From NCBI GenBank assembly GCA_041742075.1, contig JBGSJJ010000005.1:97481-161480 (forward strand): a DNA stretch of 64,000 nt, read 5' to 3'. Source of the stretch: Minisyncoccia bacterium. Lineage in GTDB: Bacteria > Patescibacteriota > Minisyncoccia > Phycocordibacterales > UBA918. Under the pieces are notes generated by a model. The model was not told the DNA's origin. It saw only the letters and a program-made list of their open reading frames with translations, and did no database searches. Position 1 is the first letter of the stretch; the number at the start of each line of letters is the position of its first letter. The position numbers and the translations under genes are program-made. Of this stretch, positions 26,329 to 61,820 are shown piece by piece.

Positions 26329-26329
26329 T

Positions 26330-41211: not shown

Positions 41212-41220
41212 TATCTTTCT

Positions 41221-41769: not shown

Positions 41770-41772
41770 ATT

Positions 41773-46710: not shown

Positions 46711-47241
46711 ATGATAAACAAGTTTGAAGCAGTAGGAATTGGGGCCAGTATCTTGGCAATGATAGTAATCTTGATGGTGTTACAAGCTGAACCAAAGGAA
46801 ACTGAGACGAAAGCTGAAGTGGTGAAGGATGAGGAAGGTGAAGTAGTAATAGTAGAGGAAGGTGGTGAAGATGAACTAGCGACCGCTTTAATAGAATCAG
46901 TTGGAACTTCAGGTGATATGGAAAAATTAATTATCGATGATGTAACAGTAGGTAGTGGGGCAGAAGTAGTAGCAGGAGACACAGTTGCGGTCCACTATGT
47001 TGGCACACTGCAAAATGGCCAAGAATTTGATAACTCTAAGAAGCGTGGTGAACCATTTATGTTTACGGTTGGTGCTGGACAAGTGATTGCTGGTTGGGAG
47101 CAAGGCGTTGTCGGCATGAAAGTTGGCGGTACCAGAATCCTAGTTATTCCACCAGCGCTTGCCTATGGTGAACGAGGAATTGGCCCCATCCCTGGCGGAG
47201 CAACTCTCGTGTTCTCAATTGAACTGGTTGAAATTCAGTAA
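46711..47241 (+). CDS. FKBP-type peptidyl-prolyl cis-trans isomerase with an N-terminal membrane anchor and an acidic linker.
   Basis: VAVHYVGTLQNGQEFDNS...FMFTVGAGQVIAGWEQGVVGMKVGGTRILVIPPALAYGERG. Confidence 0.8.
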   Translation: MINKFEAVGIGASILAMIVILMVLQAEPKETETKAEVVKDEEGEVVIVEEGGEDELATALIESVGTSGDMEKLIIDDVTVGSGAEVVAGDTVAVHYVGTLQNGQEFDNSKKRGEPFMFTVGAGQVIAGWEQGVVGMKVGGTRILVIPPALAYGERGIGPIPGGATLVFSIELVEIQ

Positions 47242-48494
47242 TGTCTACTAAGGCAGTTACATTTAAAGTAGAAGCACGTGGTAAAGGTACTCTAGCGCGA
47301 GCGGGAGTTATTTCTACCCCGCATGGAGATATACAAACGCCGGCATTTGTTGTGGTTGGAACCAAGGCAAGTGTGAAGAGCTTGATGCCCGAAGACATGA
47401 CGCAGTATGTTGGCAATCAAGTAACGCTCGCTAATACCTACCATCTCTTTCTTCAGCCGGGGCATGAAGTTATAAAAGCTGGCGGAGGACTGCATACCTT
47501 TGCAAACTGGCAGATGCCAACCATGACCGATTCGGGTGGTTTTCAGGTATTTAGTCTTGGTGCCGCCTTTGGCAAAGGGGTGACAAAATTCGCCAAAGGT
47601 GACGTCGATACCGAGACGAGTGTACCTGCCAAAGCTGGCCTCAACGTCTATAGCCAGAAGTTTGCCGAAGACCACGGTAAGCTCTGTATTATTGATGAAG
47701 AAGGTGTGACGTTTACGTCACACATCGATGGCTCGATGCACCGCTTCACCGCTGAACGCTCGATAGAGATTCAGCACGCTATTGGTGCTGACATCATTAT
47801 TGCTTTCGATGAGTGTACGGCGCCGGCTGCTGACTATGACTACCAGAAGGAAGCGATGGAAAGAACGCACCGCTGGGCCAAGCGCTCAATCATGTCACAC
47901 AAACAAAACTATGAAGCGCTTAAGAAGCAAGGGCTTTACGGTGTCGTGCAAGGCGGACGGTTTTTGGATTTGAGACAAGAGAGTGCTCGAACGCTTAGTG
48001 ATATGGATTTTGATGGCTTTGGTATTGGCGGGAGTTTTTCTAAAGAAGACTTAGGCGAGTCACTCAAGGTAGTAAATGAGTTATTGCCTGAAGATAAACC
48101 AAGACATCTCCTCGGTATTGGTGAACCAGAGGATATTGTAAATGGTGTTCTCATGGGGTGCGATACGTTCGACTGCGTGGCACCAACTCGGATTGGCCGA
48201 ACTGGTACCATTTACGTACAAACGGGCGTTATGAAGACAACCCCATGTGGTACCTTTACCTATCCTGAAACTAAGAAAATAAATCTCCTTAATGAAAAGT
48301 ATAAAACTGACCACACTCTGCTTGATCCGCTAAGTGAAGGCTACGTAGCAGGGAAGTACACCAAAGCCTACGTAGCCCACCTTTTCCGCTCTGGTGAAAT
48401 CCTCGGTCCGCACTTGGCTTCTATTCACAACCTCAACTTCATAGTCAGTTTCACTAAAAACTTACGAGCACAGATACTATTGAAATATTCTTAA
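47241..48494 (+). CDS. tgt: Queuine tRNA-ribosyltransferase (tRNA-guanine transglycosylase).
   Basis: TDSGGFQVFSLG, catalytic-region LGIGEPEDIVNGVLMGCDTFDCVAPTR, Zn site CGTFTY. Confidence 0.85.
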   Translation: MSTKAVTFKVEARGKGTLARAGVISTPHGDIQTPAFVVVGTKASVKSLMPEDMTQYVGNQVTLANTYHLFLQPGHEVIKAGGGLHTFANWQMPTMTDSGGFQVFSLGAAFGKGVTKFAKGDVDTETSVPAKAGLNVYSQKFAEDHGKLCIIDEEGVTFTSHIDGSMHRFTAERSIEIQHAIGADIIIAFDECTAPAADYDYQKEAMERTHRWAKRSIMSHKQNYEALKKQGLYGVVQGGRFLDLRQESARTLSDMDFDGFGIGGSFSKEDLGESLKVVNELLPEDKPRHLLGIGEPEDIVNGVLMGCDTFDCVAPTRIGRTGTIYVQTGVMKTTPCGTFTYPETKKINLLNEKYKTDHTLLDPLSEGYVAGKYTKAYVAHLFRSGEILGPHLASIHNLNFIVSFTKNLRAQILLKYS

Positions 48495-48516: not shown

Positions 48517-48885
48517 ATGTTATCTGCTGGGGTTATAAAAAAGAAAGTTGCTACTTCAAAGAAGCAAATGCCAGTATCTTCGATTTCTGTTGTTTATAAG
48601 AGCCAACAAGGTATGTGGCGTGGATTTGTTGTGCCATATGACGTTACTTATGAAGGTAACTCAAAGAAAAAAGTACTTGAGATACTTCAGAGCATGAGAG
48701 ATTTGTACGTTCAAGGACTGTATAGATACAATAGCCCAACCCATTTGTCTGACGTGCCACTTTCAGACGATGAAGATATAAAAGTTTTTAATCGTATTTC
48801 TCCTGAGCTGCTGAAAAGAACTTTGACTGGAAACTTCAAATTTGAGTCAAAAGATTTATATGCAGAAGCTCAATTACCCGCTTAA
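48517..48885 (+). CDS. Small hypothetical protein. Weak resemblance to a HicB-like antitoxin fold.
   Basis: VVYKSQQGMWRGFVVPYDVTYEGNSKKKVLEILQSMRDL resembles the HicB pattern (Y.A.IE.DE.GGY.V..PDLPGC...G.T.EEAL.N). Similarity judged by eye only. Confidence 0.3.
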   Translation: MLSAGVIKKKVATSKKQMPVSSISVVYKSQQGMWRGFVVPYDVTYEGNSKKKVLEILQSMRDLYVQGLYRYNSPTHLSDVPLSDDEDIKVFNRISPELLKRTLTGNFKFESKDLYAEAQLPA

Positions 48886-49141
48886 TGTATATATTAAAGC
48901 TGTTGAAGCAATCCTAGAAAGAAAGGGCTTAAGTCATATTAAGTGTTATGAAGGAAGTAAAGGTAGTGCTGTTCATTTTGATCTTTTTGTAAAAAATGAA
49001 TTAAAACCATTAGCTATGTGGCAGGTACATACTGAACATAAATCCAAAAGACGAATCGTCTCAAAAGAAGACTATAAAAAAGCTTGCCGTCATCTTGGTG
49101 TGACATTAGAAGATTTTGTAGATGTCCTTAATGAAATTTAA
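48842..49141 (+). CDS. Small hypothetical protein. Weak resemblance to a HicA-like toxin. Overlaps the upstream ORF by 44 bp in a different frame.
   Basis: ERKGLSHIKCYEGSKGSAVHF...HTEHKSKRRIVSKEDYKKACRHLGVTLEDF against the HicA pattern kGw......GSHH.f.......v.vP.H...i....l..IlkqlGl. Confidence 0.3.
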   Translation: MSQKIYMQKLNYPLNVYIKAVEAILERKGLSHIKCYEGSKGSAVHFDLFVKNELKPLAMWQVHTEHKSKRRIVSKEDYKKACRHLGVTLEDFVDVLNEI

Positions 49142-51146
49142 ACTCGCAACCGACAAAACACCAGCTGGAGACCAACCAAAAGCCATTGAGGCCTTGGTTA
49201 AGGGTATTCGTGCCGGCTATACACACCAGACGCTCCTTGGTGTAACTGGCTCTGGTAAGACCTATACGGCAGCGAACGTCATTGCGCAAATTCAGAAGCC
49301 GACTCTGGTCATCGCCCACAACAAGACGCTAGCGGCCCAGCTCGCGCAAGAGTACCGTGACTTTTTCCCGGACAATGCCGTTCATTACTTCGTCTCCTAC
49401 TATGACTACTATCAGCCTGAGGCGTATATGCCAACTTCTGATACCTACATTGAGAAGGAGGCGCAAATCAACGAAGAAATTGACCGCCTTCGGCACGCTT
49501 CGACTCAGGCGCTTTTAACGAGAGACGATGTGATTATCGTCGCTTCGGTTTCGTGTATTTATGGACTCGGTGCACCAACTGAATACCTGAAGCGTCACAT
49601 TAAGTTTGAAAAAGGTTTTCAAACGACGCGAACAGAGCTTCTTCGAACACTGATTGATTTATACTTTGAACGAACCAACGCTGACCTTACGCCCGGTCAG
49701 TTTCGGGCGGTCGGAAATACTGTTGAAATCATGCCAACGAACGAACGGGTTATTTTCAGACTCAGTTTTACGGCTAACACGGTCACTTCTATCACCAAGA
49801 TAGACGCCGTCACGAGAGAAATTATCGAAGAGTCGGAAGTATTTTTTTTGTTCCCCGCTAAGCACTTTGTTACGCCAGAAGATGAACGCAAGGTAGCTAT
49901 CGAAGACATTAAGCTTGAACTTGATGAACAACTCAAAAAATTTAAAGCGGAAGGCAAGCTCCTTGAAGCAGAGCGTATCAAACGTCGAACCCAATACGAC
50001 CTGGCTCTACTAAGAGAAGTTGGCTACTGCAATGGTATTGAAAACTACTCGCGTCACTTCGATAGACGTAAGGCCGGCGAACCGCCACACACACTGCTTT
50101 CATATTTTCCACACAAGGAAGATGGTACACCAGACTTCCTTACCATTATCGATGAATCACACGTTACTATTCCGCAAATTAACGGCATGTATGCTGGCGA
50201 CCGCTCACGCAAGGACACGTTGGTAGAGTTCGGTTTCAGACTACCGAGTGCAGTTGATAACCGACCACTTAAGTTTGCTGAGTTTGAGAAAAGTGTTGGT
50301 CAAAGAATCTATACCTCAGCTACTCCAGGTAAGTATGAGTATGCTGAATTAGAGCGTAGCGGGGTAAAAATGATTGAACAAATAATTAGGCCAACTGGTT
50401 TGGTTGACCCGATCATCGACGTACGACCGATCATACAAACAGCTGATTACCCAGGTCAGATTAAAGACTTTATTGATGAAGCCATTACGGTGATACAGGG
50501 TGGTATGCGCGTTCTTACCACCACACTGACTAAGAAAATGGCTGAAGACTTATCTGAATACCTAACAGAGAAGGGAGTTAGTACCAAGTATATTCATAGT
50601 GATATTCAGACACTAGAACGTATCGACATCATGATGGATTTTCGAAAAGGGAAGTTCGACTGCTTGGTGGGGGTGAACCTACTCCGAGAAGGTCTCGATT
50701 TACCGGAGGTCGAACTTGTTGCTATTCTTGATGCCGACAAAGCTGGTTTTCTCCGCAGTGAGACCGCCCTCATTCAAACTATCGGCCGAGCCGCCCGTAA
50801 CGTAAACGGTAGAGTAATTCTCTATGCTGACCAAATGACTGACGCGCTCGAGTACGCTATTTCTGAAACTAATCGACGTCGGGAATTACAACTAAAGTAT
50901 AATGAAAAAAACGGTATCACTCCGACCACTATCGCTAAAGAAATCCGCTCGATCGCTGATCAGCTCCGTACCAAGCATGACGAGACTGTTGAAACCCTCC
51001 TCAAAGTTGATGTGGCTTTATTTAAACAAAATCCGAAGAAAATCATTAAGGAAAAGCGTCGACAAATGGAGGAAGCGGTCGCCATTTTGGACTTTGAAAC
51101 TGCAGCTATTATACGAGATGAGATTAAATACCTAGAAACACTATAG
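49122..51146 (+). CDS. uvrB: Excinuclease ABC subunit B.
   Basis: PAGDQPKAIEALVKGIRAGYTHQTLLGVTGSGKT, helicase motifs, beta-hairpin region, and the C-terminal UVR motif AAIIRDEIKYLE. Confidence 0.95.
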   Translation: MSLMKFKLATDKTPAGDQPKAIEALVKGIRAGYTHQTLLGVTGSGKTYTAANVIAQIQKPTLVIAHNKTLAAQLAQEYRDFFPDNAVHYFVSYYDYYQPEAYMPTSDTYIEKEAQINEEIDRLRHASTQALLTRDDVIIVASVSCIYGLGAPTEYLKRHIKFEKGFQTTRTELLRTLIDLYFERTNADLTPGQFRAVGNTVEIMPTNERVIFRLSFTANTVTSITKIDAVTREIIEESEVFFLFPAKHFVTPEDERKVAIEDIKLELDEQLKKFKAEGKLLEAERIKRRTQYDLALLREVGYCNGIENYSRHFDRRKAGEPPHTLLSYFPHKEDGTPDFLTIIDESHVTIPQINGMYAGDRSRKDTLVEFGFRLPSAVDNRPLKFAEFEKSVGQRIYTSATPGKYEYAELERSGVKMIEQIIRPTGLVDPIIDVRPIIQTADYPGQIKDFIDEAITVIQGGMRVLTTTLTKKMAEDLSEYLTEKGVSTKYIHSDIQTLERIDIMMDFRKGKFDCLVGVNLLREGLDLPEVELVAILDADKAGFLRSETALIQTIGRAARNVNGRVILYADQMTDALEYAISETNRRRELQLKYNEKNGITPTTIAKEIRSIADQLRTKHDETVETLLKVDVALFKQNPKKIIKEKRRQMEEAVAILDFETAAIIRDEIKYLETL

Positions 51147-51184
51147 TTCTAGACAGGATTAAAAGGGTGATATACTAGTCATAT

Positions 51185-51553
51185 ATGAAAAAAATACTTC
51201 TGGTTGAAGACGATGCGTATATCCGAGACATTACAGCGACAAGACTCCAGGAACATTCATTTGAAGTATTTACTGCCGGCACTGGCGAACAGGCATTAAC
51301 CCAAATGGACACTGTCGTTCCAGACTTAGTCCTTATGGATTTAGATCTACCTGATACCTATGGCCTCGATATTTTGGCTGAAATGAGAGATAACGATTCA
51401 CTAAAGCTAGTGCCAGTGATTGTGTTTACCAACAACGATGCACCGGAAATTATAGAAAAAGTTATGACCTCAGGTGCGCAAGATTTTTTCAATAAAGCGA
51501 TGACTGATTTCGATCAGCTCCTTGAAGTGATCCAAAAAAACATAGGAAGCTAG
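51185..51553 (+). CDS. Single-domain response regulator (CheY-like receiver only).
   Basis: KILLVEDDAYIRD...DLVLMDLDLPDTYGLDIL...VPVIVFT. Confidence 0.8.
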   Translation: MKKILLVEDDAYIRDITATRLQEHSFEVFTAGTGEQALTQMDTVVPDLVLMDLDLPDTYGLDILAEMRDNDSLKLVPVIVFTNNDAPEIIEKVMTSGAQDFFNKAMTDFDQLLEVIQKNIGS

Positions 51554-51617
51554 CTCGTCCATAGTTATCGACAGTTTAGAGTAAGGAACTCAACCTCTTT
51601 CCTGTATACTTACCAGT

Positions 51618-54299
51618 ATGAAATCCACTCCAAAAGTGGCTAGAGAAACTAAAGTCTCCAAAAAAGATTCAGTCAAAGCTGAAAAGCTTTCTTCGTCTAA
51701 ACCAAAAAAGAAGCTTGTACTGAAGACAGCCAAGTCTTCTTCTAAGAAGGCATCCACCGTTGCTATTAAAAACAAAACTACGGTCAAGGAGCGGATGTTG
51801 AGCAAAATGTCTAAAGTGGAAGCCTTACACGGCTCGAAGAAGACAGATCCTGTAAAGTCTAAAACGTTTAAAGAGAACAAGTCAAAGGCTTTGGCTATAC
51901 TGTCACCTTTTAGGTTACCGTTTGACGCTCAGATAGTCGCTAAACAGACCGCCCGCTACGGAGGTATTACTTTTGTCACTGTTGGTGCTCTTTTTGCGTT
52001 GTTTTATGCTCAGTTGATCCAGCTCCCCATCAATGCCACTAGCCAACTTAGTCAAGCGTGCTCTTCATCCGATGTGACGTGTATTACAGAACAAGGAGTA
52101 AACTTGCTTGAGCGAAACAACGACAATATCACTGAACCAAGTGGCGTACTACAGCAACCGACCATAGCTAGTACTACACCACCCAAAGTGCCGACCATCT
52201 CACGTCCGCCAGCTATCTTTACGATTGGAGCCACAGAACCATACCGAGGTATTTTACCTATAAACCTCACTGTGGCTGAAGCTACTTCAGTTCGTATTTC
52301 TGCCTACTTTGAAGGCTCGGGTAGAAACATTAACCTCGGTAGTGCTCGGCAAGAAAATGGTGCCTGGGTGTATACCTGGAATACAACAAATTTTGATAAT
52401 GGTCGCTACCGACTCAAAGCCTTGATAACCAATAAAACTGGCTCATACGAAGCAGTCCATCCAGATCGAGTCGTGATTGAGAACGTTGTTGTTACTGAAG
52501 AAGAGGAAGACATTGAAGCAGAAGAGCAGGCAATCAGTCAAAACAACAACACTCTTAACTACGAGTATAATTTTGACAAAACAAGTATTACTTTGTCCCA
52601 GGAGTTTCCTGATCCAAAAGTTTCTGACAATGTAAAAATTTACTTTGTTGACACGACAAACAGCCAGAAAAAGTTTTTAAATGAATCACACTTCTATAGC
52701 TACCTACTACAGGCTAACGACTCTGGAGCCTTTACCTGGAAAGTAACCATTAAGGCGCCGAACCTCCCGAGTGGCAAATACGTAATTCGTACCGAGCGCT
52801 TTCGAAATAATGTCTTAATTGATATTGGTAAAAAAGAAATTGACTACAAAAACAGTAACTTCAACACAATTGAAGATTCAGGAGACTTAGTAAAGAACGA
52901 GACTGGAGCCGTTATCTCGGTTCGTGGAGCGCAGTCCCTCAGTAAGTTCGCAGACGTAGTAGTTGAAACATCAGATGCAACTTTTGCAGAAGTTTACGCT
53001 GTTAATACCGCTTCAGTCAACAACATCTTCCTTGGCCTCGCAAGAAAGACTGGTACAGGAACCTGGGTACTTAACTGGGATACGAAGCAAATTCCAAATA
53101 GCACCTACCAGCTATTTGCACGAATTGGTGGCTCAAAAGGTATCTACGAAACAAACCGTATCACCGTAAATATAAGAAATGAACGACAGACGACACCAAC
53201 TATCACCGAGGTTGAGGAGTTAACTACCCGCACCGAAGAAATCAAAGTTATTCTTAATGATAATGTACTTCTTAAGAGTAATCTTTGGAATTCTGACCAA
53301 GGTACTTCTACCGAACCACTATTCAATGATTTCTTATTAGACTACCAAGATACGCTTCAAGAAGAGTTCCAGCGCTACGCCGCTGCTATCCGCTCTGGCA
53401 ACGAAAGCTCTATAGCAGTAGCTAACACTCGTCTTCTAGGACTTGAAAATGAATACTTAAGTGTAATTGCTGGTGCCCCAAACAATGAAGAACTAGAGCG
53501 AATTTTTACAGAATACATAGCAAACGCCCGAGCTCGGATTGAAGGTGATGTACTCAAAATTGAACGTATTGTTTCAGAACGAACAAGTGAATCGATGCTC
53601 GTTGACTCTGACCGAGACGAAGTGTCTGACTTTGACGAAATTTATATTTACAAGACTAATCCCTTTTCTGCCGACACCAGTGGCAAGGGTATCCCAGACG
53701 GTGTTGCTATTTTAAATGGCCTTGATCCACTGAGTACTGATTCAAATGCCTCGATAGTCTTTGAGTCACCAAAGGACATTGGCGTTATTCGTGAAGATAT
53801 TTTGAGTGTACAAAGTATTACTGCAGTAGCTCAAGATGAATCAACAGGTGATGTAACTGCAACTGTAGCTCCAGCAGTTATTTCAGGAACTGCCTTACCA
53901 AATAGTTTTGTTACAATCTATATCTTTAGTAATCCAATCGTAGTAACCGTTAAAACAGAAGCTGATGGAAGCTGGCAATACAGATTTGAAAAGGAGCTTG
54001 AAGACGGTGAACACTCCGTATATGTAGCCTTAACTGACAACTCTGGTCGTATTATTGCCCGCAGTGAGCCATTTAGTTTCATCAAGCAAGCGCAAGCGTA
54101 TACAACAATTGATGAAGCGCTGTCTGGTAGTGTCTCAAATCAGACTGATTCAAATGACTACTCATTCTTCTCTTCATCACTTATTTATCTTGTTCTTTCC
54201 TTCGCGGTTGTAACAATTGGCCTCGTACTTCTTCTTCTTGGTATGTTTCTTGACAAGCGTCGCAAGGTCGAGAACATGATGCAAGAAGAAACTTTGTAA
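51618..54299 (+). CDS. Large membrane protein (893 aa). Domains in order: Lys-rich cytoplasmic N-terminal tail of about 100 aa, a transmembrane helix, an extracytoplasmic region of about 750 aa, and a C-terminal transmembrane helix.
   Basis: N-terminus KKLVLKTAKSSSKKASTVAIKNKTTVKER... Transmembrane helices ITFVTVGALFALFYAQLI and LIYLVLSFAVVTIGLVLLLLGMF. Asp-rich putative Ca-binding stretch DSDRDEVSDFDE. Confidence 0.6.
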   Translation: MKSTPKVARETKVSKKDSVKAEKLSSSKPKKKLVLKTAKSSSKKASTVAIKNKTTVKERMLSKMSKVEALHGSKKTDPVKSKTFKENKSKALAILSPFRLPFDAQIVAKQTARYGGITFVTVGALFALFYAQLIQLPINATSQLSQACSSSDVTCITEQGVNLLERNNDNITEPSGVLQQPTIASTTPPKVPTISRPPAIFTIGATEPYRGILPINLTVAEATSVRISAYFEGSGRNINLGSARQENGAWVYTWNTTNFDNGRYRLKALITNKTGSYEAVHPDRVVIENVVVTEEEEDIEAEEQAISQNNNTLNYEYNFDKTSITLSQEFPDPKVSDNVKIYFVDTTNSQKKFLNESHFYSYLLQANDSGAFTWKVTIKAPNLPSGKYVIRTERFRNNVLIDIGKKEIDYKNSNFNTIEDSGDLVKNETGAVISVRGAQSLSKFADVVVETSDATFAEVYAVNTASVNNIFLGLARKTGTGTWVLNWDTKQIPNSTYQLFARIGGSKGIYETNRITVNIRNERQTTPTITEVEELTTRTEEIKVILNDNVLLKSNLWNSDQGTSTEPLFNDFLLDYQDTLQEEFQRYAAAIRSGNESSIAVANTRLLGLENEYLSVIAGAPNNEELERIFTEYIANARARIEGDVLKIERIVSERTSESMLVDSDRDEVSDFDEIYIYKTNPFSADTSGKGIPDGVAILNGLDPLSTDSNASIVFESPKDIGVIREDILSVQSITAVAQDESTGDVTATVAPAVISGTALPNSFVTIYIFSNPIVVTVKTEADGSWQYRFEKELEDGEHSVYVALTDNSGRIIARSEPFSFIKQAQAYTTIDEALSGSVSNQTDSNDYSFFSSSLIYLVLSFAVVTIGLVLLLLGMFLDKRRKVENMMQEETL

Positions 54300-54303
54300 C
54301 TTT

Positions 54304-55683
54304 ATGGTTTCATACGCCATTCGAATGATTTTACGTGGCGGAGAGTATCTACGTTCACATCCACAACTTTTGTTTGTGTTGACACTTCTCGTGGTGATTC
54401 CACTTCTTTTTCTCTACAGTGGTCAGCAGTTTCTCGACGCTGGTAGAGCCAACCAAGATCGCTTACAGCGAGATAAGGTAGGTATTTTGCATGATGTGTT
54501 TGCATCACTTATCATTAGTTCAGATTTCAATAATGAAGTAATCCAAAATGAAATTGACAGAATAGCGAGAGTAAACAATGACATTGTCGACTTTAGAGTC
54601 GTCACCCTTGAAGATGGTATAGCTACTCCTATTGCCGCCCTTGATAGAGAGAAAATCGGTACCCTGGAGTCCTTCACTGACATGTTTGTTAACTCAACAG
54701 TTCGTGTAGATGAGTCACTTATATTTGAGATACCTACCTCGGATGGTCGTGTCTGGTTGTCGTATCGTTCGGTACGAAACCCAGACACTGGAGTGTTTTA
54801 CATTATTCATACTGAAACCTCTCTTGAGCTGATTGACCGCCTTTTTGCCCAACGAGAACAGTCAGCCCTTTTTTCTTTGTTATACATTTTTATTTTTATC
54901 TTGGGTCTAGCCTATTGGCATATCAGGATGTCGGATTATCGCTATTTATATCTCACTGAGAAAAAGCATAACGACGCAAAAGATACGTTTATCAACGTAG
55001 CCGCTCATGAACTAAGGGCACCGCTCACTGCTATGAAAGGCTATTCAGACATGCTCGGCGAAAAACTTACCGATGATACCCAAAAAGAATATGCGTCGCG
55101 TATATCCGTTTCTACTGAACGACTTCTTGAGATGGTTAACGACCTGCTTGACGTTGCCCGTATCCAGTCAGGTAAAATTGAAGTTGTCTTGGGCTACGTT
55201 GATGTTTCAAGAGTGGTTAATGAAGTTATTGAAGAACTATCGGTTACCGCCACAGAGAAAAATATTACTCTTACGAGTAAGGGGGCTGAAACACCACACC
55301 AAGCAATTGCTGACCAGGCTAGACTGCACCAAGTTCTCACAAACGTTATTAATAACGCGATTAAGTACACACCAAAAGGCAACATCGAAGTTGCCGTTTC
55401 AGCACGACACCGAACACTTGAAATACGTATAAAAGATACCGGTATGGGTATTGAAGCCGAGGACCAGAAAAAGTTGTTTGCACCGTTCTTCCGGGTTAAA
55501 ACCGCAGATGTCACCTCGATTACCGGTACCGGTCTTGGGATGTGGATTACCAAACAGTTAGTCTCAGTGATGCAGGGCACGATTGGCGTGGAGTCTATTA
55601 GTGGTGTTGGAACTCATATAGTGATTACCTTACCAACAAAAAGTGAGACGGTCGGTGTACACAAAGCAGAAGCAAATCTGTAA
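54304..55683 (+). CDS. Membrane sensor histidine kinase with two transmembrane helices flanking a periplasmic sensor domain of about 150 aa.
   Basis: HisKA H-box AAHELRAPLTAMKGY. HATPase_c N-box NNAIKYTP, DTGMGI, and G-box GTGLGMWI. Confidence 0.85.
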   Translation: MVSYAIRMILRGGEYLRSHPQLLFVLTLLVVIPLLFLYSGQQFLDAGRANQDRLQRDKVGILHDVFASLIISSDFNNEVIQNEIDRIARVNNDIVDFRVVTLEDGIATPIAALDREKIGTLESFTDMFVNSTVRVDESLIFEIPTSDGRVWLSYRSVRNPDTGVFYIIHTETSLELIDRLFAQREQSALFSLLYIFIFILGLAYWHIRMSDYRYLYLTEKKHNDAKDTFINVAAHELRAPLTAMKGYSDMLGEKLTDDTQKEYASRISVSTERLLEMVNDLLDVARIQSGKIEVVLGYVDVSRVVNEVIEELSVTATEKNITLTSKGAETPHQAIADQARLHQVLTNVINNAIKYTPKGNIEVAVSARHRTLEIRIKDTGMGIEAEDQKKLFAPFFRVKTADVTSITGTGLGMWITKQLVSVMQGTIGVESISGVGTHIVITLPTKSETVGVHKAEANL

Positions 55684-55718
55684 TAAGTGGATTTTCTGCA
55701 ATGTAGAGTGATAAACCT

Positions 55719-55727
55719 TGCTATACT
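55719..55727 (+). promoter_or_regulatory. Extended -10 element TGCTATACT upstream of the FIST gene.
   Basis: Exact recurrent 9-mer, 29 nt upstream of the ATG at 55757. Confidence 0.45.
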
Positions 55728-55756
55728 ATATTTAGTTAAATTAGTAAAGAAAATAT

Positions 55757-56974
55757 ATGATTATCGCATCAACATCAGTGAATTCTGGCTCAGATGACTT
55801 CGTAGTCGGCGTGTCAGCGGCCTCAGTGGCACTCAGTGACTTACAACAAAAAAAACCAGGTGCACTTCCTGTTGTTGTATACCTATTTGTTTCAATAAAC
55901 TATGACTTTGCGCTTGTTATTAAAGGAATCCGTTCAGTAATCGGTGAAGAAGTTTTAATTGTTGGTTCTTCAACCGCAGGTGAAATTTCTAATGCTGGAC
56001 CCGCCCCACGTCCTTCAGTCGCGCTCATGTTTTTGTATTCCGATAGTATTCATTTTACTTCAGCTATAGCAAACGACATAAGCACTGACTCGCAAAAAGC
56101 TGGGTCAGATGTTGCTTTTTCAATTCTTCAAAATTCTCCTGAAGCACTTAAGCTCGTTATGATGTTTGCAGACGGACTTAAAGGTAACGGTTCTGCGATT
56201 TTACGTGGACTCATCTCGCATTTAGGTGATCAATTTCCAATAGTGGGTGGCTCTTCTGGCGATAATGGCCACTTCGTTGAAACGAAACAGATTTTTCAAA
56301 ACTCAGCGTATACAGACTCAGTAGTCGGAGTTGGTATTTCAGGACCACTTGAATTTTCTGTTGGGGTCAACCATGGATGGAGTGCGGTTGGTGCACCGAG
56401 AACTGTTACAAATGCAACCGGAACGGTTGTACATACTATAGACAACGAACCAGCACTATCTTTGTATGCCCAATACTTAGGTGAAGACGAAATTGCAAAT
56501 CTTAAATCTACAACCTTAGGTGCTGTAGCTCTTTCGTATCCCCTAGGTATCAAGGATAATCAAAGTGGTGAAATGCTCCTACGGGCTCCTTTTGCTGTGC
56601 AGCCAGATGGATCTATTGTTTGTGGTGGTGAAGTAAAAACTGGTTCAATCATACAACTTATGATTGGAACAAAAGAAGACGCTATTCTCGCAGCAAGAAA
56701 AGCTGCCGAAACTGCAATGGCAGGACTTGGCAAAAAACCAGAAGCCGCTTTTATTTTTAGTTGTCACGTACGAAATACTCTTTATGCTAATCTAGAAGCC
56801 TCAAGTGCAGAAGTTAGTGCCATACAAGAAGTAATCGGATCCGATGTGCCAATGATTGGATTTTATACATATGCTGAACAGGCACCAGTCGGTGGAGTAA
56901 CCCATAACATTCATAGCTGTAATCCAGAGTTTCATAACGAAACTGTAGTCCTTGTCTTAATTGCAGAAACGTAG
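55757..56974 (+). CDS. FIST-domain signalling protein (FIST_N plus FIST_C).
   Basis: C-terminal FIST_C-like ...AAFIFSCHVRNTLYANLEASSAEVSAIQEVIGSDVPMIGFYTYAEQAP. Overall about 400 aa with the two-domain layout of FIST proteins. Confidence 0.65.
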   Translation: MIIASTSVNSGSDDFVVGVSAASVALSDLQQKKPGALPVVVYLFVSINYDFALVIKGIRSVIGEEVLIVGSSTAGEISNAGPAPRPSVALMFLYSDSIHFTSAIANDISTDSQKAGSDVAFSILQNSPEALKLVMMFADGLKGNGSAILRGLISHLGDQFPIVGGSSGDNGHFVETKQIFQNSAYTDSVVGVGISGPLEFSVGVNHGWSAVGAPRTVTNATGTVVHTIDNEPALSLYAQYLGEDEIANLKSTTLGAVALSYPLGIKDNQSGEMLLRAPFAVQPDGSIVCGGEVKTGSIIQLMIGTKEDAILAARKAAETAMAGLGKKPEAAFIFSCHVRNTLYANLEASSAEVSAIQEVIGSDVPMIGFYTYAEQAPVGGVTHNIHSCNPEFHNETVVLVLIAET

Positions 56975-56982
56975 TCTTTACT

Positions 56983-57807
56983 ATGGATAAGGTTCAGGAA
57001 TTAGAAAAAAAAGTACTAGAGTTACAAAGCATCATCACTGTAATGGACAAGTCCGCCATGATGATAGTTCGTCGTGACATAGAACTTCGTCACGCGAACG
57101 CTAAGCTAAACGAACTAGATAAAAGTAAGTCGGAGTTCGTCTCGATTGCTGCTCACCAAATGCGTACACCGCTCTCTGCTATAAAGTGGTCACAGCAGAT
57201 GCTTTTTAACGAAGAGCTCGGACCTCTCAATTCTGATCAAAAAAAGATTATTACGCAAACAATGGAAAGTGTAAATGGACTGGTGGTGTTAGTAAACAAC
57301 CTCCTTACCGCTGACCATCTAGAGCTTGGTAAAGGCACAAACGTAGTAAAGCGAATAAACATTATCTTGCTTATTAATGACGTCATTAAAACCCTTTTTC
57401 CTATCGCTTCAGAGCGGGGTGTCACGATTAACTTTTCTCACCAGCAAGGTGAGGTAGCACTCGATACGAATCCAGAGCGAATGAAAGACGTTTTTGCCAA
57501 CTTACTTGATAATGCCATCAAGTACACCCCAGCCGGCGGGACGATTACGATTACACTCTGGATTACCGAAGTGATAAACATCACCGTTTCAGACACCGGG
57601 ATTGGTATTCCAAATGATTATCTCCCAAAATTATTTGGACGGTTCGTCCGAGCTGATAATGCCAAGCGAGCGGATCCAAACGGATCTGGTTTGGGCTTAT
57701 ACATAGTTAAAAAGATTATTCAGGCAAACAGTGGTACAATTTCTGTAAGCAGTACTGCCGGTAGCGGTACGACATTTACAGTAACGCTACCGCTTGCTGT
57801 ACATTAA
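56983..57807 (+). CDS. Cytoplasmic histidine kinase: coiled coil, HisKA and HATPase_c domains, no transmembrane helix.
   Basis: AAHQMRTPLSAIKWS (H-box). DNAIKYTPAGG, DTGIGIP, GSGLGLYIVKKI. Confidence 0.8.
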   Translation: MDKVQELEKKVLELQSIITVMDKSAMMIVRRDIELRHANAKLNELDKSKSEFVSIAAHQMRTPLSAIKWSQQMLFNEELGPLNSDQKKIITQTMESVNGLVVLVNNLLTADHLELGKGTNVVKRINIILLINDVIKTLFPIASERGVTINFSHQQGEVALDTNPERMKDVFANLLDNAIKYTPAGGTITITLWITEVINITVSDTGIGIPNDYLPKLFGRFVRADNAKRADPNGSGLGLYIVKKIIQANSGTISVSSTAGSGTTFTVTLPLAVH

Positions 57808-58660
57808 TAAGCAAAATATGGCCGATAGACTACTAGAGGGCAAGACGATTTTAATTGTTGAAGACAATACATTTTTATCTAACGTAATATCTCAGAAACT
57901 CTCTTTACGTGGCGCGCGAGCACTTACCTACACTAACGGACTAGAAGGCCTCGCTGCTATTCGGGTAGAAAAGCCTGACCTTGTACTCCTTGATATCCTC
58001 ATGCCGATAATGAATGGCTACGAGGTACTCCAAGTTTTAAATAATGAAGGCCTTACAGCAGACATTCCAATTATAGTTATCTCAAACTCTGGTCAACCGG
58101 TAGAAATTGAACGAATCAAGGCCTTAGGTGTTCGCGAGTATCTCATCAAGGCTGACTTTGAACCGGACGATGTTTTGCAAAAGGTGTACGAAACACTTGG
58201 TCTCAAAGAAGCTTCAAGTGGTTATGAAATGTCACCGGAATCAAATGCGAGTGTCGCCCAAAGTACAGCCGAAGCAGAATCGTCAGCGTTACCCCGTGTT
58301 CTTGTCGTCGAAGACGATCCACTTCTGCGCAATCTACTAGCGATGAAGTTGTCTAATTCTAATTGCCCAGCCATGTTCAGTAACGATGGCCTCCACGTGA
58401 TGGAACTAGTCGCTAGTTTTAACCCGGAAGTAATAGTGCTCGACCTTCGTTTACCTGGTAAGGACGGCTTTGAGATTCTGAAGGACTTAAAATCAAACGA
58501 TGAGTTCAAACACATTCCAGTCGTAATCTTTTCAAACAACAGTAGTGAGGAAGACCAAAAGCGTACGACTGACCTAGGTGCTGCAGCCTTTTTCGTAAAA
58601 GCGATGACAGACCTCACAGAATTTATACAAGAGCTTGTGAAAATTGCTCAAAAAAAATAA
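57794..58660 (+). CDS. Response regulator with two tandem receiver domains and no output domain.
   Basis: REC1 KTILIVEDN...DLVLLDILMPIMNGYEVL. REC2 PRVLVVEDDPLL...EVIVLDLRLPGKDGFEIL. Confidence 0.8.
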   Translation: MLYINKQNMADRLLEGKTILIVEDNTFLSNVISQKLSLRGARALTYTNGLEGLAAIRVEKPDLVLLDILMPIMNGYEVLQVLNNEGLTADIPIIVISNSGQPVEIERIKALGVREYLIKADFEPDDVLQKVYETLGLKEASSGYEMSPESNASVAQSTAEAESSALPRVLVVEDDPLLRNLLAMKLSNSNCPAMFSNDGLHVMELVASFNPEVIVLDLRLPGKDGFEILKDLKSNDEFKHIPVVIFSNNSSEEDQKRTTDLGAAAFFVKAMTDLTEFIQELVKIAQKK

Positions 58661-58734: not shown

Positions 58735-61371
58735 ATGCCACAAAAACCAACGAAAACAACCTGGAATGGCTCTGTCGAGCAAAAGATTGTCGTTAAAGGT
58801 GCTCGTACCCACAACCTGAAAAACATCAGTGTTGAGATGCCTCGCAACGCCATGATAGCGATTACCGGACCATCTGGTTCTGGTAAGTCTTCGCTTGCGT
58901 TTGATACTATTTTTGCTGAAGGTCAACGTCGCTACGTTGAGTCACTCTCACCGTACGCGAGACAATTCTTGAGACAAATGCAGAAGCCTGATGTGGATGA
59001 AATTAGTGGTCTCTCACCAGCAATCTCGATTGACCAAAAGTCAGCTTCAAGAAACCCACGGTCGACCGTGGCTACGATTACTGAAATCTATGACTATCTG
59101 CGTATTTTGTATGCTCGCGTGGGCAGACCATACTGTATGGACGTCGACGTGGCGATTGAAAAGCTTTCGCAAGACGAAATTTTAAGCATTGTCCTTAAGT
59201 CAATCGAAGAACGTGAAGTCGAAAACGCCACCAAGGCCGAGAAGCGCGACAAGGTACTCGGTATTGAGATTTCTCACGGTCGAGTAGCTATTTTTGCTCC
59301 GATCATTGTCGGTCGTAAGGGTGAGTACTACCAGCTACTTTATGACTTGCTCGCGAAAGGGTACGAGACGGTAAAAATTGATGGTCAAATCAAGCAGTTG
59401 CGTGAAAAAATTATTCTCTCCAAGAATAGTCGCCACGATATTGACGTACTCATAGACGACATTTTTGTGAGTGAGTTCACAACTGACAAAAAAGGTTCCC
59501 ATGAACGACTCTCAGAAGCCGTTGAACGGGCGCTTCATGAAAGTAATGGTCTGGTTAAAATCGAGAGTCCTGACGGCAGTGAACGTACTCTCTCAGCGAA
59601 GTTTATCTGTCCAATTGACGGCTCTTCCTTCCCAGAAGTAGAACCACGGTTATTTTCATTTAACTCACCTTATGGGGCCTGTCCGGAGTGTAACGGTCTT
59701 GGTGTCGTCGGTATATTTCAAAGTGACGTCTGTCCCGTTTGCGATGGTGCCCGCCTCCGCAAAGAAGCACTTCGTGTATTTATTGGTGGCGACGGCAAGA
59801 AGAAGCTTGGTTTCAACATTGTAGACTTCACCAACATGACAGTGGCTGAAGCAGTGGAGTTTATTTCTAACCTCAAGTTATCGAAAAAAGAGCAAGAAAT
59901 CGCCTGGCCGGCTCTTAGGGAGATTATCGATAGACTCTCGTTTATGCAGAACGTCGGGATTGAGTACCTCACCCTTAACCGTCGGGCCAATACACTCTCA
60001 GGAGGAGAAGCCCAGCGTATTAGACTGGCTTCCCAGCTCGGTAGTGGCCTGGTGGGCGCCCTCTATGTACTTGATGAGCCGACGATTGGTCTGCATCAAA
60101 GGGATAACGACAAGCTGATTAAAACTCTGACTGAACTGCGTGACCTTGGCAACACCATTATTGTGGTAGAGCACGATGAAGACACTATTTTCGCTGCTGA
60201 CTATTTGGTTGATATCGGGCCTGGAGCCGGTATTCATGGTGGGGAAGTGGTTGTCGCTGACTATCTCAAAAAACTTCTTGAGGCACCAAAAAATACGAGC
60301 AAGTCAATCACACTTGATTACCTGCGTGGCGATAAAAGAATTGAAGTTCCAGATAGGCGGGAAAGTGAGAAAGGTTCTATCAAGATTCGAGGTGGCAAAG
60401 CGTTCAACATCAAGAACCTCAATGTCGACATTCCACTTGGTCGACTGATTTGTGTTACTGGCGTCTCAGGCTCAGGTAAGTCGACCTTCATGTACGAGAT
60501 AGTAGATAAGAACCTAAAGTCTCGCCTTGAAAAAAAGTACCGCACTCCGCATACCTATAACTGCAAAACCTTTACCGGTAGCGAGTATCTGGGCCGGTCA
60601 GTCCTCATAGACCAGTCACCAATTGGTCGCACGCCACGCAGTAACCCAGTGACGTATACTGGTGCCTTTACCCACATGCGTGACATGTTTGCTGCTTCAA
60701 ACGAAGCAAAAGCCCGTGGTTGGAAGCCAGGACGCTTCAGTTTCAACGTAAAAGGAGGACGCTGTGAGGCGTGCGAAGGTAACGGCATGATTGCAGTTGA
60801 GATGCACTTCTTACCGACGGTCTATGTAACGTGCGACATTTGTGACGGTAAGCGGTTTACCAAAGAAACACTTGAGGTGTACTACAAAGGAAAAAACATT
60901 TACGAGGTACTCGAAATGACCATTGAAGAGGCAGTTGAGTTCTACAAAGAAGTGCCGTCTATCTATGAGCGTATCGCGACACTACAAGAAGTTGGTTTAG
61001 GCTACTTAAAGCTTGGTCAAAGTGCCACCACGCTCTCTGGCGGAGAAGCTCAGCGCGTGAAGATAGCTTCTGAACTCTATAAGCCCCATACCCAGAAAAC
61101 TATTTACTTGCTCGATGAGCCAACCATTGGACTTCACTACGAGGATGTCCGAAAGCTGATTGAGATCCTCCAAGAACTGGTAAACCGTGGTAACACCGTG
61201 ATGGTAATTGAACACAATCTCGACTTAGTGAAGTGCGCTGACTACATCATCGACATTGGTCCCGAAGGAGGGAGTGGTGGAGGGGAGATAGTTGCTAAAG
61301 GTACGCCTGAAGAGATTGTAGAGAATAAAAATTCTCATACCGGAAAGTATCTCAAAAAGCACTTGCGCTAG
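58735..61371 (+). CDS. uvrA: Excinuclease ABC subunit A. At 878 aa it is a short form.
   Basis: Two ABC modules: GPSGSGKSSLAFDT and GVSGSGKSTFMYE as Walker A, LSGGEAQRIRLA and LSGGEAQRVKIA as signature motifs, and Zn-finger Cys clusters CPECNGLG and CEACEGNG. Confidence 0.95.
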   Translation: MPQKPTKTTWNGSVEQKIVVKGARTHNLKNISVEMPRNAMIAITGPSGSGKSSLAFDTIFAEGQRRYVESLSPYARQFLRQMQKPDVDEISGLSPAISIDQKSASRNPRSTVATITEIYDYLRILYARVGRPYCMDVDVAIEKLSQDEILSIVLKSIEEREVENATKAEKRDKVLGIEISHGRVAIFAPIIVGRKGEYYQLLYDLLAKGYETVKIDGQIKQLREKIILSKNSRHDIDVLIDDIFVSEFTTDKKGSHERLSEAVERALHESNGLVKIESPDGSERTLSAKFICPIDGSSFPEVEPRLFSFNSPYGACPECNGLGVVGIFQSDVCPVCDGARLRKEALRVFIGGDGKKKLGFNIVDFTNMTVAEAVEFISNLKLSKKEQEIAWPALREIIDRLSFMQNVGIEYLTLNRRANTLSGGEAQRIRLASQLGSGLVGALYVLDEPTIGLHQRDNDKLIKTLTELRDLGNTIIVVEHDEDTIFAADYLVDIGPGAGIHGGEVVVADYLKKLLEAPKNTSKSITLDYLRGDKRIEVPDRRESEKGSIKIRGGKAFNIKNLNVDIPLGRLICVTGVSGSGKSTFMYEIVDKNLKSRLEKKYRTPHTYNCKTFTGSEYLGRSVLIDQSPIGRTPRSNPVTYTGAFTHMRDMFAASNEAKARGWKPGRFSFNVKGGRCEACEGNGMIAVEMHFLPTVYVTCDICDGKRFTKETLEVYYKGKNIYEVLEMTIEEAVEFYKEVPSIYERIATLQEVGLGYLKLGQSATTLSGGEAQRVKIASELYKPHTQKTIYLLDEPTIGLHYEDVRKLIEILQELVNRGNTVMVIEHNLDLVKCADYIIDIGPEGGSGGGEIVAKGTPEEIVENKNSHTGKYLKKHLR

Positions 61372-61765: not shown

Positions 61766-61820
61766 AGCAAGTAAGTCGCCCCTCGGGGCGACTTCATCAT
61801 TGTGGTATAGTGCATTTTAA

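What the first reader, a model, noticed from the sequence alone, without database searches (positions are those of the whole stretch)
51185..58660. Signalling island inserted between uvrB and uvrA: receiver, giant membrane protein, sensor kinase, FIST protein, cytoplasmic kinase, dual-receiver regulator, with no output domain
Six co-oriented genes sit in order between uvrB and uvrA: a single-domain receiver, an 893-aa bitopic membrane protein with a histone-H1-like Lys-rich cytoplasmic tail, a periplasm-sensing histidine kinase, a FIST-domain protein, a soluble histidine kinase, and a response regulator made only of two receiver domains. I recognise no DNA-binding, GGDEF, EAL or CheB/CheR output domain anywhere in the cluster. 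That suggests a phosphorelay or phosphate sink whose output goes through protein-protein interaction, possibly with the FIST protein or the Lys-rich membrane protein. The position inside the uvr gene set is unusual.
Basis: partly seen in the sequence, partly recalled or inferred. Interest (0 to 1): 0.6.

Follow-up and report, generated by a model that had tools for sequence, protein, structure and literature searches.

The report
FIST-kinase-receiver signalling module beside uvr genes
Between the DNA-repair genes uvrB and uvrA of a Patescibacteria (CPR) genome lie two signalling modules with no recognisable output domain; the core one (a FIST sensor protein, a sensor-less kinase and a two-receiver protein) is conserved in many related genomes and is often found at this same spot, so it is an old arrangement, not a recent insertion.

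Summary
The membrane protein has two TM segments. The dual-receiver gene starts at 57818. The whole 64-kb window is co-oriented, so co-orientation says little.

It is not one inserted island. Comparative data (80 loci) and promoter-like boxes split it into REC1 | BIG-HK1 | FIST-HK2-RR2. The FIST-kinase-REC/REC triad is present in 70 of 80 loci. It lies next to uvr genes in 21 of 46 well-flanked loci, scattered over the deep clades of the FIST tree. BIG-HK1(+REC) is a lineage-specific add-on (4 fetched loci plus the window).

The FIST protein is a distant NosP relative (82 bits; equivalog cutoff 450) and folds as one Toblerone-type domain. It most likely acts as the in-trans sensor of the sensor-less kinase. 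All catalytic and phospho-acceptor residues are conserved. I found no Hpt and no output domain; the 120 best RR2 relatives carry only receiver-type domain hits. More distant non-CPR relatives end in REC-GGDEF.

Verdict: a new variant of a known kind (NosP-type three-component system with receiver-only output). The uvr linkage is real, but its functional meaning is unproven, because tgt and ddl are equally syntenic.

The parts
47241..48494 (+). tgt (queuine tRNA-ribosyltransferase); upstream member of the conserved synteny block
   Evidence: Pfam TGT E 2e-118; a neighbour in 22 of the related loci
49122..51146 (+). uvrB
   Evidence: Pfam UvrB, UvrB_inter, Helicase_C, UVR; a neighbour of the FIST gene in 30 loci
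51171..51176 (+). -10-like box TATACT (TGATATACT), 8 nt before the REC1 ATG; predicts a leaderless transcript
   Evidence: TATAVT boxes are enriched in intergenic DNA, P = 1.7e-10
51185..51553 (+). REC1, single-domain receiver (E8 D9 D10, D52, T82, K104 all present)
   Evidence: Pfam Response_reg E 3e-23; residues read from the sequence
51605..51610 (+). -10-like box TATACT, 7 nt before the BIG ATG
51618..54299 (+). BIG: surface protein anchored at both ends. Basic disordered N-tail (24% Lys), TM1, three beta-sandwich domains, a helical region, an Asp-rich stretch with a weak thrombospondin-type-3-like hit, a Big_13 domain, and a C-terminal TM
   Evidence: only 8 homologues found
54304..55683 (+). 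HK1: membrane histidine kinase, 2 TM, extracytoplasmic domain of about 150 aa with no family hit, H-box HELRAP (H235)
   Evidence: follows BIG with a 4-nt gap and is always next to BIG in orthologous loci
55722..55727 (+). -10-like box (TGCTATACT), 29 nt before the FIST ATG
55757..56974 (+). FIST/FIST_C protein, a distant NosP relative; predicted in-trans sensor of HK2
56983..57807 (+). HK2: soluble kinase without a sensor domain (short predicted N-terminal helix (my reading of the sequence) + HisKA + HATPase_c), H-box HQMRTP (H58)
   Evidence: 8-nt gap after FIST
57818..58660 (+). RR2: REC-REC protein, both receivers complete (E15 D16 D59 S89 K111; E165 D166 D167 D209 S239 K261), low-complexity linker of about 30 aa
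58686..58691 (+). -10-like box (TGCTATACT), 43 nt before the uvrA ATG
58735..61371 (+). uvrA
   Evidence: Pfam UvrA_inter, ABC_tran
61821..63065 (+). uvrC, with its own -10-like box at 61806-61811

Best explanation
The region holds two separate signalling modules inside an old Patescibacteria synteny block (FKBP-tgt-uvrB ... uvrA-uvrC-ddl). Module 1 is FIST-HK2-RR2. It is a NosP-type three-component system. The stand-alone FIST protein binds a small ligand of unknown identity and, by contact, sets the autophosphorylation rate of the sensor-less kinase HK2. HK2 then phosphorylates one or both receiver domains of RR2. RR2 has no effector domain, so it must act by phosphorylation-dependent binding to other proteins, or by draining phosphate. 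Module 2 is BIG-HK1, with REC1 probably its partner. It is a lineage-specific membrane two-component system in which the large surface protein BIG probably serves as co-sensor for HK1. Shown here: the domains, the conserved catalytic residues, the gene order and the distribution. Inferred: FIST-HK2 contact, the ligand, the phosphotransfer partners, and any link to nucleotide excision repair.
For: Domains. Triad conservation: the FIST gene is followed by the small kinase and then the receiver protein in 70 of 80 species loci, and 6 of the 10 exceptions lie at or within about 1 kb of a contig end. Packing: median gaps are 3 nt (FIST-HK) and 13 nt (HK-RR), against 67-80 nt to the uvr genes. Promoters: -10-like TATAVT boxes precede REC1, BIG, FIST, uvrA, orf107 and uvrC but not HK1, HK2 or RR2. 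On the + strand 15 of 44 boxes fall in the 4.2% of the window that is intergenic (P = 1.7e-10). NosP relation: full-length match to NCBIfam NosP, E 5e-23. Published NosP systems consist of a FIST sensor, a sensor-less kinase and a response regulator, and there NosP binds the kinase and controls its autophosphorylation (PMC12570481). Generality: stand-alone FIST genes elsewhere lie directly upstream of a 355-aa 'ATP-binding protein' that carries an H-box (Nostoc) or of a 278-aa adenylate/guanylate cyclase protein (Aliiroseovarius). Distant non-CPR homologues show FIST -> GAF-HK -> REC-GGDEF. HK2 has no TM and no sensor domain, and its H, N, G1 and G2 boxes are conserved in essentially all 57 sequences. 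Both RR2 receivers keep the acidic pair, the phospho-Asp, Ser/Thr and Lys in essentially all 54 sequences. The 120 best RR2 relatives (257-321 aa) carry only receiver-type domains. The FIST model (pLDDT 90.5) is one Toblerone-type fold, and its best PDB match is the FBXO22 FIST domain. BIG-HK1 occurs only in the closest clade, always adjacent, but either before FIST or after RR2.
Against: No biochemistry exists for any CPR member. The NosP match is far below the equivalog cutoff (82 against 450 bits). The His of the family's HGW motif is not conserved in three distant FIST proteins, so the ligand cannot be transferred from NosP. From my own knowledge, CPR bacteria generally lack haem synthesis, which makes a haem/NO sensor uncertain. 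In some family members the kinase has its own dCache, PAS or GAF sensor, so FIST need not be the only input. HK2 has an invariant Gln where most HisKA kinases have Glu or Asp next to the phospho-His, which could mean atypical kinase chemistry. The promoters are consensus matches only, and no + strand terminators separate the units, so read-through from uvrB to uvrA is possible.
Confidence: 0.6

Rival explanations
1. One reading: all six genes form one pathway, a phosphorelay or phosphate sink acquired as an island, with the FIST or Lys-rich membrane protein as the target of the output.
For: The genes are contiguous. Two kinases and three receiver domains without an output would suit sink or branched designs. 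REC1 resembles the second receiver of RR2 (31% identity, with a shared KAMTD motif). In L005 a dual receiver precedes BIG.
Against: The modules separate in evolution: 70 loci have the triad, while only 4 fetched loci plus the window have BIG-HK1, and at variable positions. Separate -10 boxes precede REC1, BIG and FIST. There is no Hpt domain or hybrid kinase. There are no island hallmarks. FIST lies upstream of sensor-less transducers in unrelated phyla, which fits an input role.
Confidence: 0.12
2. The triad is functionally tied to DNA repair. It senses a genotoxic condition (for example nitrosative, alkylating or redox stress), and phosphorylated RR2 modulates nucleotide excision repair through direct contact with Uvr proteins or through co-expression.
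For: uvrB, uvrA and uvrC are by far the commonest neighbours (30, 27 and 22 loci; the next unrelated family reaches only 9). The linkage is spread over the deep FIST clades and survives local rearrangements: the triad lies before uvrB in L018, L025, L040 and L055, between uvrA and uvrC in L079, and uvrB sits between FIST and the kinase in L031. In several species the gaps to uvrB or uvrA are only 7-21 nt. RecG lies within 7 genes in 9 loci from three FIST clades. An O6-methylguanine methyltransferase directly follows a lone FIST gene in L071 and L077.
Against: tgt (22 loci) and ddl (17 loci) are about as syntenic as uvrC and have no link to repair, so inherited synteny explains much of the pattern. 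About half of the well-flanked loci (25 of 46) have no uvr neighbour. An unbiased scan of 146 neighbours in unlinked loci found 172 families with a maximum count of 3, where RecG tied with an AI-2E transporter and LOG. Most genomes have promoter-like boxes between the triad and the uvr genes. No DNA-repair context was seen for the non-CPR homologues.
Confidence: 0.2
3. The FIST protein is an enzyme, not a sensor: a Toblerone-fold hydrolase or lyase acting on a small ring compound. The adjacent kinase system would then respond to its substrate or product.
For: After FBXO22, the structural matches are cyanuric acid hydrolases, barbiturase and chorismatases. Some genomes carry a lone FIST gene without kinase or receiver (L071, L077, probably L069).
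Against: Sequence identity to those enzymes is 6-10% with TM-scores of 0.35-0.40, and I did not check their catalytic residues. In 70 of 80 loci a kinase and receiver gene follow; where the kinase is directly adjacent (61 loci) the median FIST-kinase gap is 3 nt. Published NosP proteins act as kinase regulators.
Confidence: 0.08

Closest known systems
NosP-NahK/NosK-NosR systems (Pseudomonas, Legionella, Vibrio, Burkholderia)
   Same: A stand-alone FIST + FIST_C protein is encoded next to a histidine kinase that lacks its own sensor domain, followed by a response regulator. The match to the NCBIfam NosP model is full length.
   Different: The score is 82 bits against the 450-bit equivalog cutoff. 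The regulator is REC-REC, with no HD-GYP, GGDEF/EAL or Hpt output. The host is a CPR bacterium. The ligand is unknown, and haem/NO sensing is untested. The kinase H-box is HQxRTP. The genomic context is uvr genes, not biofilm or c-di-GMP genes.
H-NOX/HnoK-type accessory-sensor two-component systems
   Same: The logic is the same: a separate soluble sensor protein controls a sensor-less kinase in trans (review PMC8846402).
   Different: The sensor fold is unrelated (FIST/Toblerone, not H-NOX), and here there is no c-di-GMP output.
Receiver-only response regulators (CheY, DivK, MrrA, EpsW; dual-receiver FrzZ of Myxococcus)
   Same: The output comes from receiver domains alone, acting through protein-protein contacts or as phosphate hubs or sinks (PMC5964349 and PMC12802240). 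That FrzZ has two receiver domains is from my own knowledge; the papers I opened name it only as a Frz output regulator.
   Different: There is no CheA, MCP or polarity module nearby. RR2 is paired with a classical HisKA kinase and a FIST protein. I did not test homology to FrzZ beyond the shared REC fold.
FBXO22 FIST domain (human F-box protein)
   Same: It is the best structural match for the model (Foldseek E 1e-12). It has three YjgF-like repeats and acts as a protein-recognition module (PMC11185555).
   Different: Identity is 12-14%. It is a eukaryotic ubiquitin-ligase substrate receptor, and that paper reports no obvious ligand pocket in it.

Membership tests
NosP-type three-component system | Stand-alone protein made of FIST (PF08495) + FIST_C (PF10442) | tested here: met
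   Pfam E 1e-41 and 4e-30, covering aa 40-377 of 405
NosP-type three-component system | Passes the NCBIfam NosP equivalog model NF041558 (cutoff 450 bits) | tested here: not met
   81.8 bits, E 5e-23, model positions 8-353 of 368. A distant homologue only.
NosP-type three-component system | Encoded next to a histidine kinase that has no sensor domain of its own | tested here: met
   HK2 has only HisKA + HATPase_c and no TM. The gap to FIST is 8 nt here and 3 nt at the median over 61 loci.
NosP-type three-component system | Haem binding, with NO- or haem-dependent control of kinase autophosphorylation | not testable with these tools
   This needs purified protein. No bacterial FIST structure is in the PDB. 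The His of the HGW motif is not conserved in distant FIST proteins.
NosP-type three-component system | Partner regulator with a c-di-GMP-metabolising output (HD-GYP, GGDEF/EAL) or an Hpt relay | tested here: not met
   RR2 is REC-REC only. REC-GGDEF appears only in distant non-CPR relatives.
Classical two-component system (HisKA kinase + receiver) | Kinase with conserved H-box His and N/G1/G2 ATP-binding boxes | tested here: met
   HK2: H58, N177 and the G boxes are conserved in essentially all 57 sequences. HK1: H235 in HELRAP, with HATPase_c E 2e-27.
Classical two-component system (HisKA kinase + receiver) | Receiver with acidic pocket, phospho-acceptor Asp, Ser/Thr and Lys | tested here: met
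   Both RR2 domains keep them in essentially all 54 sequences. REC1 has E8 D9 D10 D52 T82 K104 (sequence).
Classical two-component system (HisKA kinase + receiver) | Effector (output) domain on the regulator | tested here: not met
   No output domain by Pfam or NCBIfam. The 120 best relatives carry only receiver-type hits.
Multi-step phosphorelay (His-Asp-His-Asp) | Hpt domain or hybrid kinase with a fused receiver | tested here: not met
   No Hpt hit in any cluster protein or in the small flanking ORFs. Neither kinase has a receiver domain.
Chemotaxis-like system with CheY/FrzZ-type output | CheA-type kinase, CheW and MCP in the neighbourhood | tested here: not met
   None among the window genes scanned (all long ORFs from 14864 to 63065; the 4919-aa ORF at 86-14845 was not scanned) or among recurrent neighbours.
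Genomic island / mobile element | Flanking direct repeats, integrase or transposase, compositional break, patchy distribution | tested here: not met
   Only short chance repeats. GC is 0.40-0.44 inside the cluster against 0.44-0.48 in the uvr genes. The same position recurs across the deep FIST clades.

The most novel reading that the evidence does not exclude
In Patescibacteria, the FIST-kinase-REC/REC triad is a dedicated damage or genotoxin-sensing pathway that controls nucleotide excision repair. Phosphorylated RR2 would bind UvrA or UvrB directly, or gate their co-expression. That would be a two-component route for regulating DNA repair without a DNA-binding regulator.
Probability: 0.12. 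Interest if true: 0.8.

Novelty: new variant of a known kind. Interest (0 to 1): 0.45.

Why it matters
CPR bacteria encode very few histidine kinases, about 0.29 per 100 genes (PMC10805038). The two kinases here may therefore be much of this organism's sensory equipment, and the FIST-kinase-REC/REC triad may be one of the most widely kept signalling systems in the group (531 tblastn-confirmed matches in a scan of one genome per species). It shows that NosP-type sensing exists outside Proteobacteria with a receiver-only output. It also gives a defined, small and testable system (three soluble proteins) for asking what FIST domains sense and how output-less regulators work. The recurrent placement among uvrB, uvrA and uvrC offers a concrete hypothesis about control of DNA repair in organisms that are hard to culture. 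I found no paper that mentions both the FIST domain and Patescibacteria, and none in the related searches describes this arrangement.

Tried and rejected
1. Mobile island: there are no meaningful flanking repeats, no integrase gene, only a slight GC dip, and no tRNA or Rfam hits in the window. Rejected.
2. Cryptic output domain: Pfam and NCBIfam on all six proteins, an AF2 model of FIST with Foldseek, and the domain content of 120 RR2 relatives found none.
3. Hidden Hpt in small ORFs: orf107, the 122-aa ORF and the 99-aa ORF have no family hit and no HxxKG-like motif.
4. Identifying the FIST ligand from conserved residues: the alignment with distant FIST proteins showed mainly Gly and other apparently structural positions as universally conserved, and the family's HGW His is not universal. 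This was inconclusive. The primary NosP biochemistry papers were not available.
5. Sequence search of the PDB with the FIST profile gave nothing significant.
6. A second functional theme in loci not linked to uvr: the unbiased Pfam scan gave no family above 3 of 146 neighbours. The RecG and Ogt links are suggestive only.
7. The sigma-70 consensus scan found fewer -35/-10 pairs than in shuffles (16 against 24.9), whereas the -10-only TATAVT analysis was informative.
8. The BIG structure has low overall confidence (pLDDT 54.6 from 6 sequences). I used only the domain-level features and did no fold search on it.
9. Source names for the proteins: none are held.
Full report
OBSERVATION. The ORF list reproduces the six co-oriented genes at the stated coordinates, flanked by a 674-aa and an 878-aa ORF. 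Pfam identifies these flanks as uvrB and uvrA. It assigns the six genes as follows: a single receiver (REC1), an 893-aa protein with only a Big_13 hit (BIG), a HisKA/HATPase_c kinase (HK1), a FIST + FIST_C protein, a second HisKA/HATPase_c kinase (HK2), and a protein with two receiver stretches (RR2). uvrC follows at 61821-63065. NCBIfam adds no output domain; the regulators match only through their receiver parts.

Four details need correcting. BIG has two hydrophobic segments, at about aa 116-134 and 855-873, so both ends are cytoplasmic and about 720 aa lie outside the cell. This layout holds in all five orthologues. RR2 is called from the ATG at 57818 (280 aa) in public data. All long ORFs of the 64-kb window are on the + strand, so co-orientation carries no information here. 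The host is a Patescibacteria (CPR) metagenome-assembled genome.

ANATOMY. The intergenic gaps are 38 nt (uvrB-REC1), 64 (REC1-BIG), 4 (BIG-HK1), 73 (HK1-FIST), 8 (FIST-HK2), 10 (HK2-RR2) and 74 (RR2-uvrA). Each gap longer than 30 nt holds a TATAVT box, often in the form TGnTATACT. Over the window, 15 of the 44 + strand TATAVT boxes fall in the 4.2% of the DNA that is intergenic (binomial P = 1.7e-10). For REC1, BIG, uvrC and the next gene, the box ends 7-9 nt before the start codon, which predicts leaderless mRNAs. No convincing + strand terminator lies between uvrB and uvrA. The predicted units are REC1 | BIG-HK1 | FIST-HK2-RR2 | uvrA | orf107 | uvrC. This rests on motifs only, and read-through remains possible.

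COMPARATIVE GENOMICS. The FIST protein has 115 database relatives at E <= 1e-5, and the few that carry a source name are mostly Patescibacteria. A scan of one genome per species found 531 stretches that encode a relative, and 80 loci were fetched. In 70 of the 80 loci the FIST gene is followed by a small kinase and a receiver protein. Six of the ten exceptions lie at or within about 1 kb of a contig end. The median gaps inside the triad are 3 and 13 nt.

After the triad itself, the commonest neighbours are uvrB (30 loci), uvrA (27), tgt (22), uvrC (22) and a 322-aa protein (17) that corresponds to the D-Ala-D-Ala ligase following uvrC in the source contig. The next family reaches only 9 loci. 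Of the 46 loci with enough flank, 21 have uvr genes beside the triad, and 17 of those show exactly uvrB-triad-uvrA. In a neighbour-joining tree of the FIST proteins, the uvr-linked loci are scattered over the deep clades. The simplest reading is an ancestral arrangement with repeated loss, not an insertion in this genome. Local variants exist. The triad lies before uvrB in L018, L025, L040 and L055, and between uvrA and uvrC in L079. In L031, uvrB sits between FIST and the kinase.

BIG and HK1 occur only in the closest clade (the window with its source contig, plus L002-L005). They are always adjacent to each other, but they lie before FIST in some loci and after RR2 in others. BIG has only 8 database hits. 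There are no flanking repeats, and GC is only slightly lower than in the uvr genes.

WHAT THE FIST PROTEIN IS. It matches the NCBIfam NosP model over its whole length (E 5e-23), but at 82 bits against a 450-bit cutoff. It is therefore a distant homologue and not an equivalog. In published NosP systems, a FIST protein binds a sensor-less kinase encoded next to it and controls that kinase's autophosphorylation. The kinase then phosphorylates a regulator with a c-di-GMP output (PMC12570481). A review notes that ligand binding by FIST is poorly understood (PMC8846402).

The same gene logic appears elsewhere. In a Nostoc plasmid, FIST lies upstream of a 355-aa 'ATP-binding protein' that carries an H-box. 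In Aliiroseovarius it lies upstream of a small nucleotide cyclase. More distant non-CPR relatives (37-40% identity) show FIST -> GAF-kinase -> REC-GGDEF, FIST -> PAS-kinase with two single receivers, or FIST -> kinase + receiver.

The AlphaFold model built on 34 sequences is confident (pLDDT 90.5, pTM 0.90). It is one globular fold. Its best PDB matches are the FIST domain of human FBXO22 (E 1e-12), then the Toblerone-fold cyclic amide hydrolases and the chorismatases. This agrees with the published description of the FIST fold (PMC11185555). The protein has no room for an HTH. A sequence search of the PDB finds no bacterial FIST structure. The residues conserved across distant FIST proteins are mainly Gly and other apparently structural positions, and the His of the family's HGW motif is not universal. 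The ligand therefore cannot be inferred.

KINASE AND REGULATOR. HK2 has no TM and no sensor domain. Its H-box His and its N, G1 and G2 boxes are conserved in essentially all 57 sequences. An unusual Gln directly follows the His (HQ[LM]RTP). This signature is shared by the CPR FIST-linked kinases, including the dCache variant, but not by the distant GAF kinases or by HK1.

Both receiver domains of RR2 keep the acidic pair, the phospho-Asp, Ser/Thr and Lys in essentially all 54 sequences. REC1 also has the full set (sequence). The 120 best RR2 relatives are 257-321 aa long and carry only receiver-type domain hits. In some genomes the two receivers are separate genes (L003, L073, L010). I found no Hpt domain or hybrid kinase. 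The pathway is therefore a plain His-to-Asp system with receiver-only output. Such outputs are known to act by protein binding or as phosphate hubs (PMC5964349 and PMC12802240). A dual-receiver example is FrzZ (from my own knowledge).

SECOND MODULE. BIG has a basic N-terminal tail of about 100-115 aa (24% Lys in the window protein), which is conserved in character but not in sequence. The low-confidence model (pLDDT 54.6) still resolves several parts: three beta-sandwich domains (about aa 195-290, 312-412 and 430-520, with pLDDT 75-90), a helical region (565-655), a disordered Asp-rich stretch with a weak thrombospondin-type-3-like hit, the Big_13 domain, and a C-terminal TM helix. HK1 follows after 4 nt and has an extracytoplasmic domain of about 150 aa with no family match. 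BIG evolves fast (about 29% identity between clade members), whereas the FIST proteins of the same loci (L002-L005) are 50-66% identical to the window protein, as expected for a surface protein. I infer that it is a co-sensor for HK1, with REC1 as the likely partner.

THE UVR LINK. The linkage is real and old, but its meaning is open. In favour of a functional tie: uvr genes dominate among the neighbours; linkage is kept through local rearrangements; the gaps to uvrB or uvrA are only 7-21 nt in several species; RecG lies within 7 genes in 9 loci from three FIST clades; and an O6-methylguanine methyltransferase directly follows a lone FIST gene in two loci. Against it: tgt and ddl belong to the same block at similar frequency; half of the well-flanked loci have lost the linkage; an unbiased scan of 146 neighbours in unlinked loci gave 172 families with none above 3 hits; and non-CPR relatives show no repair context. 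I put the functional-link reading at about 0.2.

MECHANISM AND VERDICT. Most likely (0.6), this is a NosP-type accessory-sensor system (FIST -> HK2 -> RR2) with receiver-only output, plus a lineage-specific membrane two-component module (BIG/HK1/REC1). Both are embedded in an ancestral tgt-uvrB...uvrA-uvrC-ddl block. CPR genomes carry few kinases (PMC10805038), so this may be a large share of the organism's signalling. No paper mentions both the FIST domain and Patescibacteria, and the related searches turned up none that describes this arrangement. It is a new variant of a known kind. It is moderately interesting, mainly as a compact system for testing what FIST senses and how an output-less regulator acts, and for the unproven link to DNA repair.

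Noticed in passing
window 1-64000: Every long ORF in the window is on the + strand (about 37 genes). Many are very large proteins, several with surface-type domains or no Pfam hit: a 4919-aa ORF at 86-14845 (not scanned), a 2060-aa ORF at 31172-37354 with no Pfam hit, and several Ig-like, fn3 or cohesin proteins at 14864-28093.
   Followed up: partly
window 18013, 25278, 46702, 51171, 51605, 61806, 63066: TATAVT (-10-like) boxes end only 3-9 nt before start codons, which suggests widespread leaderless transcription in this genome. All 8 matches to TGNTATAMT and all 8 to TGNTATAST (overlapping patterns, about 11 distinct sites) are on the + strand.
   Followed up: partly
window 56983-57807 (HK2 aa 58-63) and related loci: The H-box is H-Q-[LM]-R-T-P, with Gln in place of the usual Glu or Asp next to the phospho-His. 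It is invariant in 57 CPR FIST-linked kinases and is also present in the dCache variant. HK1 has HELRAP, and the distant GAF kinases have HELRTP.
   Followed up: partly
L007, L009, L011, L026, L031: Variant loci insert a Peripla_BP_6 solute-binding protein and replace the small kinase with a dCache_1-HAMP membrane kinase between FIST and the dual receiver. L007 also has two tandem FIST genes.
   Followed up: partly
L071 3993-4475; L077 11212-11703; L065 2179-4488; L069 885-3128: Where the contig extends downstream (L071, L077, L069), a clade of FIST genes has no kinase or receiver gene after it; its other members (L033, L065) end too close to the contig edge to tell. These FIST genes sit next to DNA repair genes. 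An O6-methylguanine methyltransferase lies directly downstream in two loci, and RecG lies 2-3 genes upstream, in divergent orientation, in two others.
   Followed up: partly
window 48517-48885 and 48842-49141: Two small overlapping ORFs (122 and 99 aa) without any family match sit between tgt and uvrB, in a 236-nt stretch that would otherwise be intergenic. Their reality and function are unknown.
   Followed up: no
window 61773-61794: A near-perfect GC-rich palindrome (AAGTCGCCCCTCGGGGCGACTT) lies between orf107 and uvrC, just upstream of the uvrC -10-like box. It could be a hairpin or an operator-like site. It has no T-run on the + strand.
   Followed up: no
window 40543-42516: A thiol-redox gene trio: a DsbA-like thioredoxin, an AhpC/TSA peroxiredoxin and a DsbD/CcdA-type membrane protein. 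Glutamate dehydrogenase follows.
   Followed up: no
window 51472-51507 vs 58576-58611: The C-terminal coding region of REC1 and that of the second receiver of RR2 share a 36-nt stretch at 75% identity (protein motif FF[NV]KAMTD). This suggests that REC1 is a paralogue of that domain.
   Followed up: partly
window 53600-53800 (BIG aa 660-727): An Asp-rich stretch whose Asp positions are invariant among the six aligned BIG orthologues (DSDRDEVSDFDE...DPFSADTSGKGIPDG...DPLSTD), with a weak (E 0.003) NCBIfam hit to a thrombospondin-type-3-named adhesion protein model. It is predicted to be disordered.
   Followed up: no
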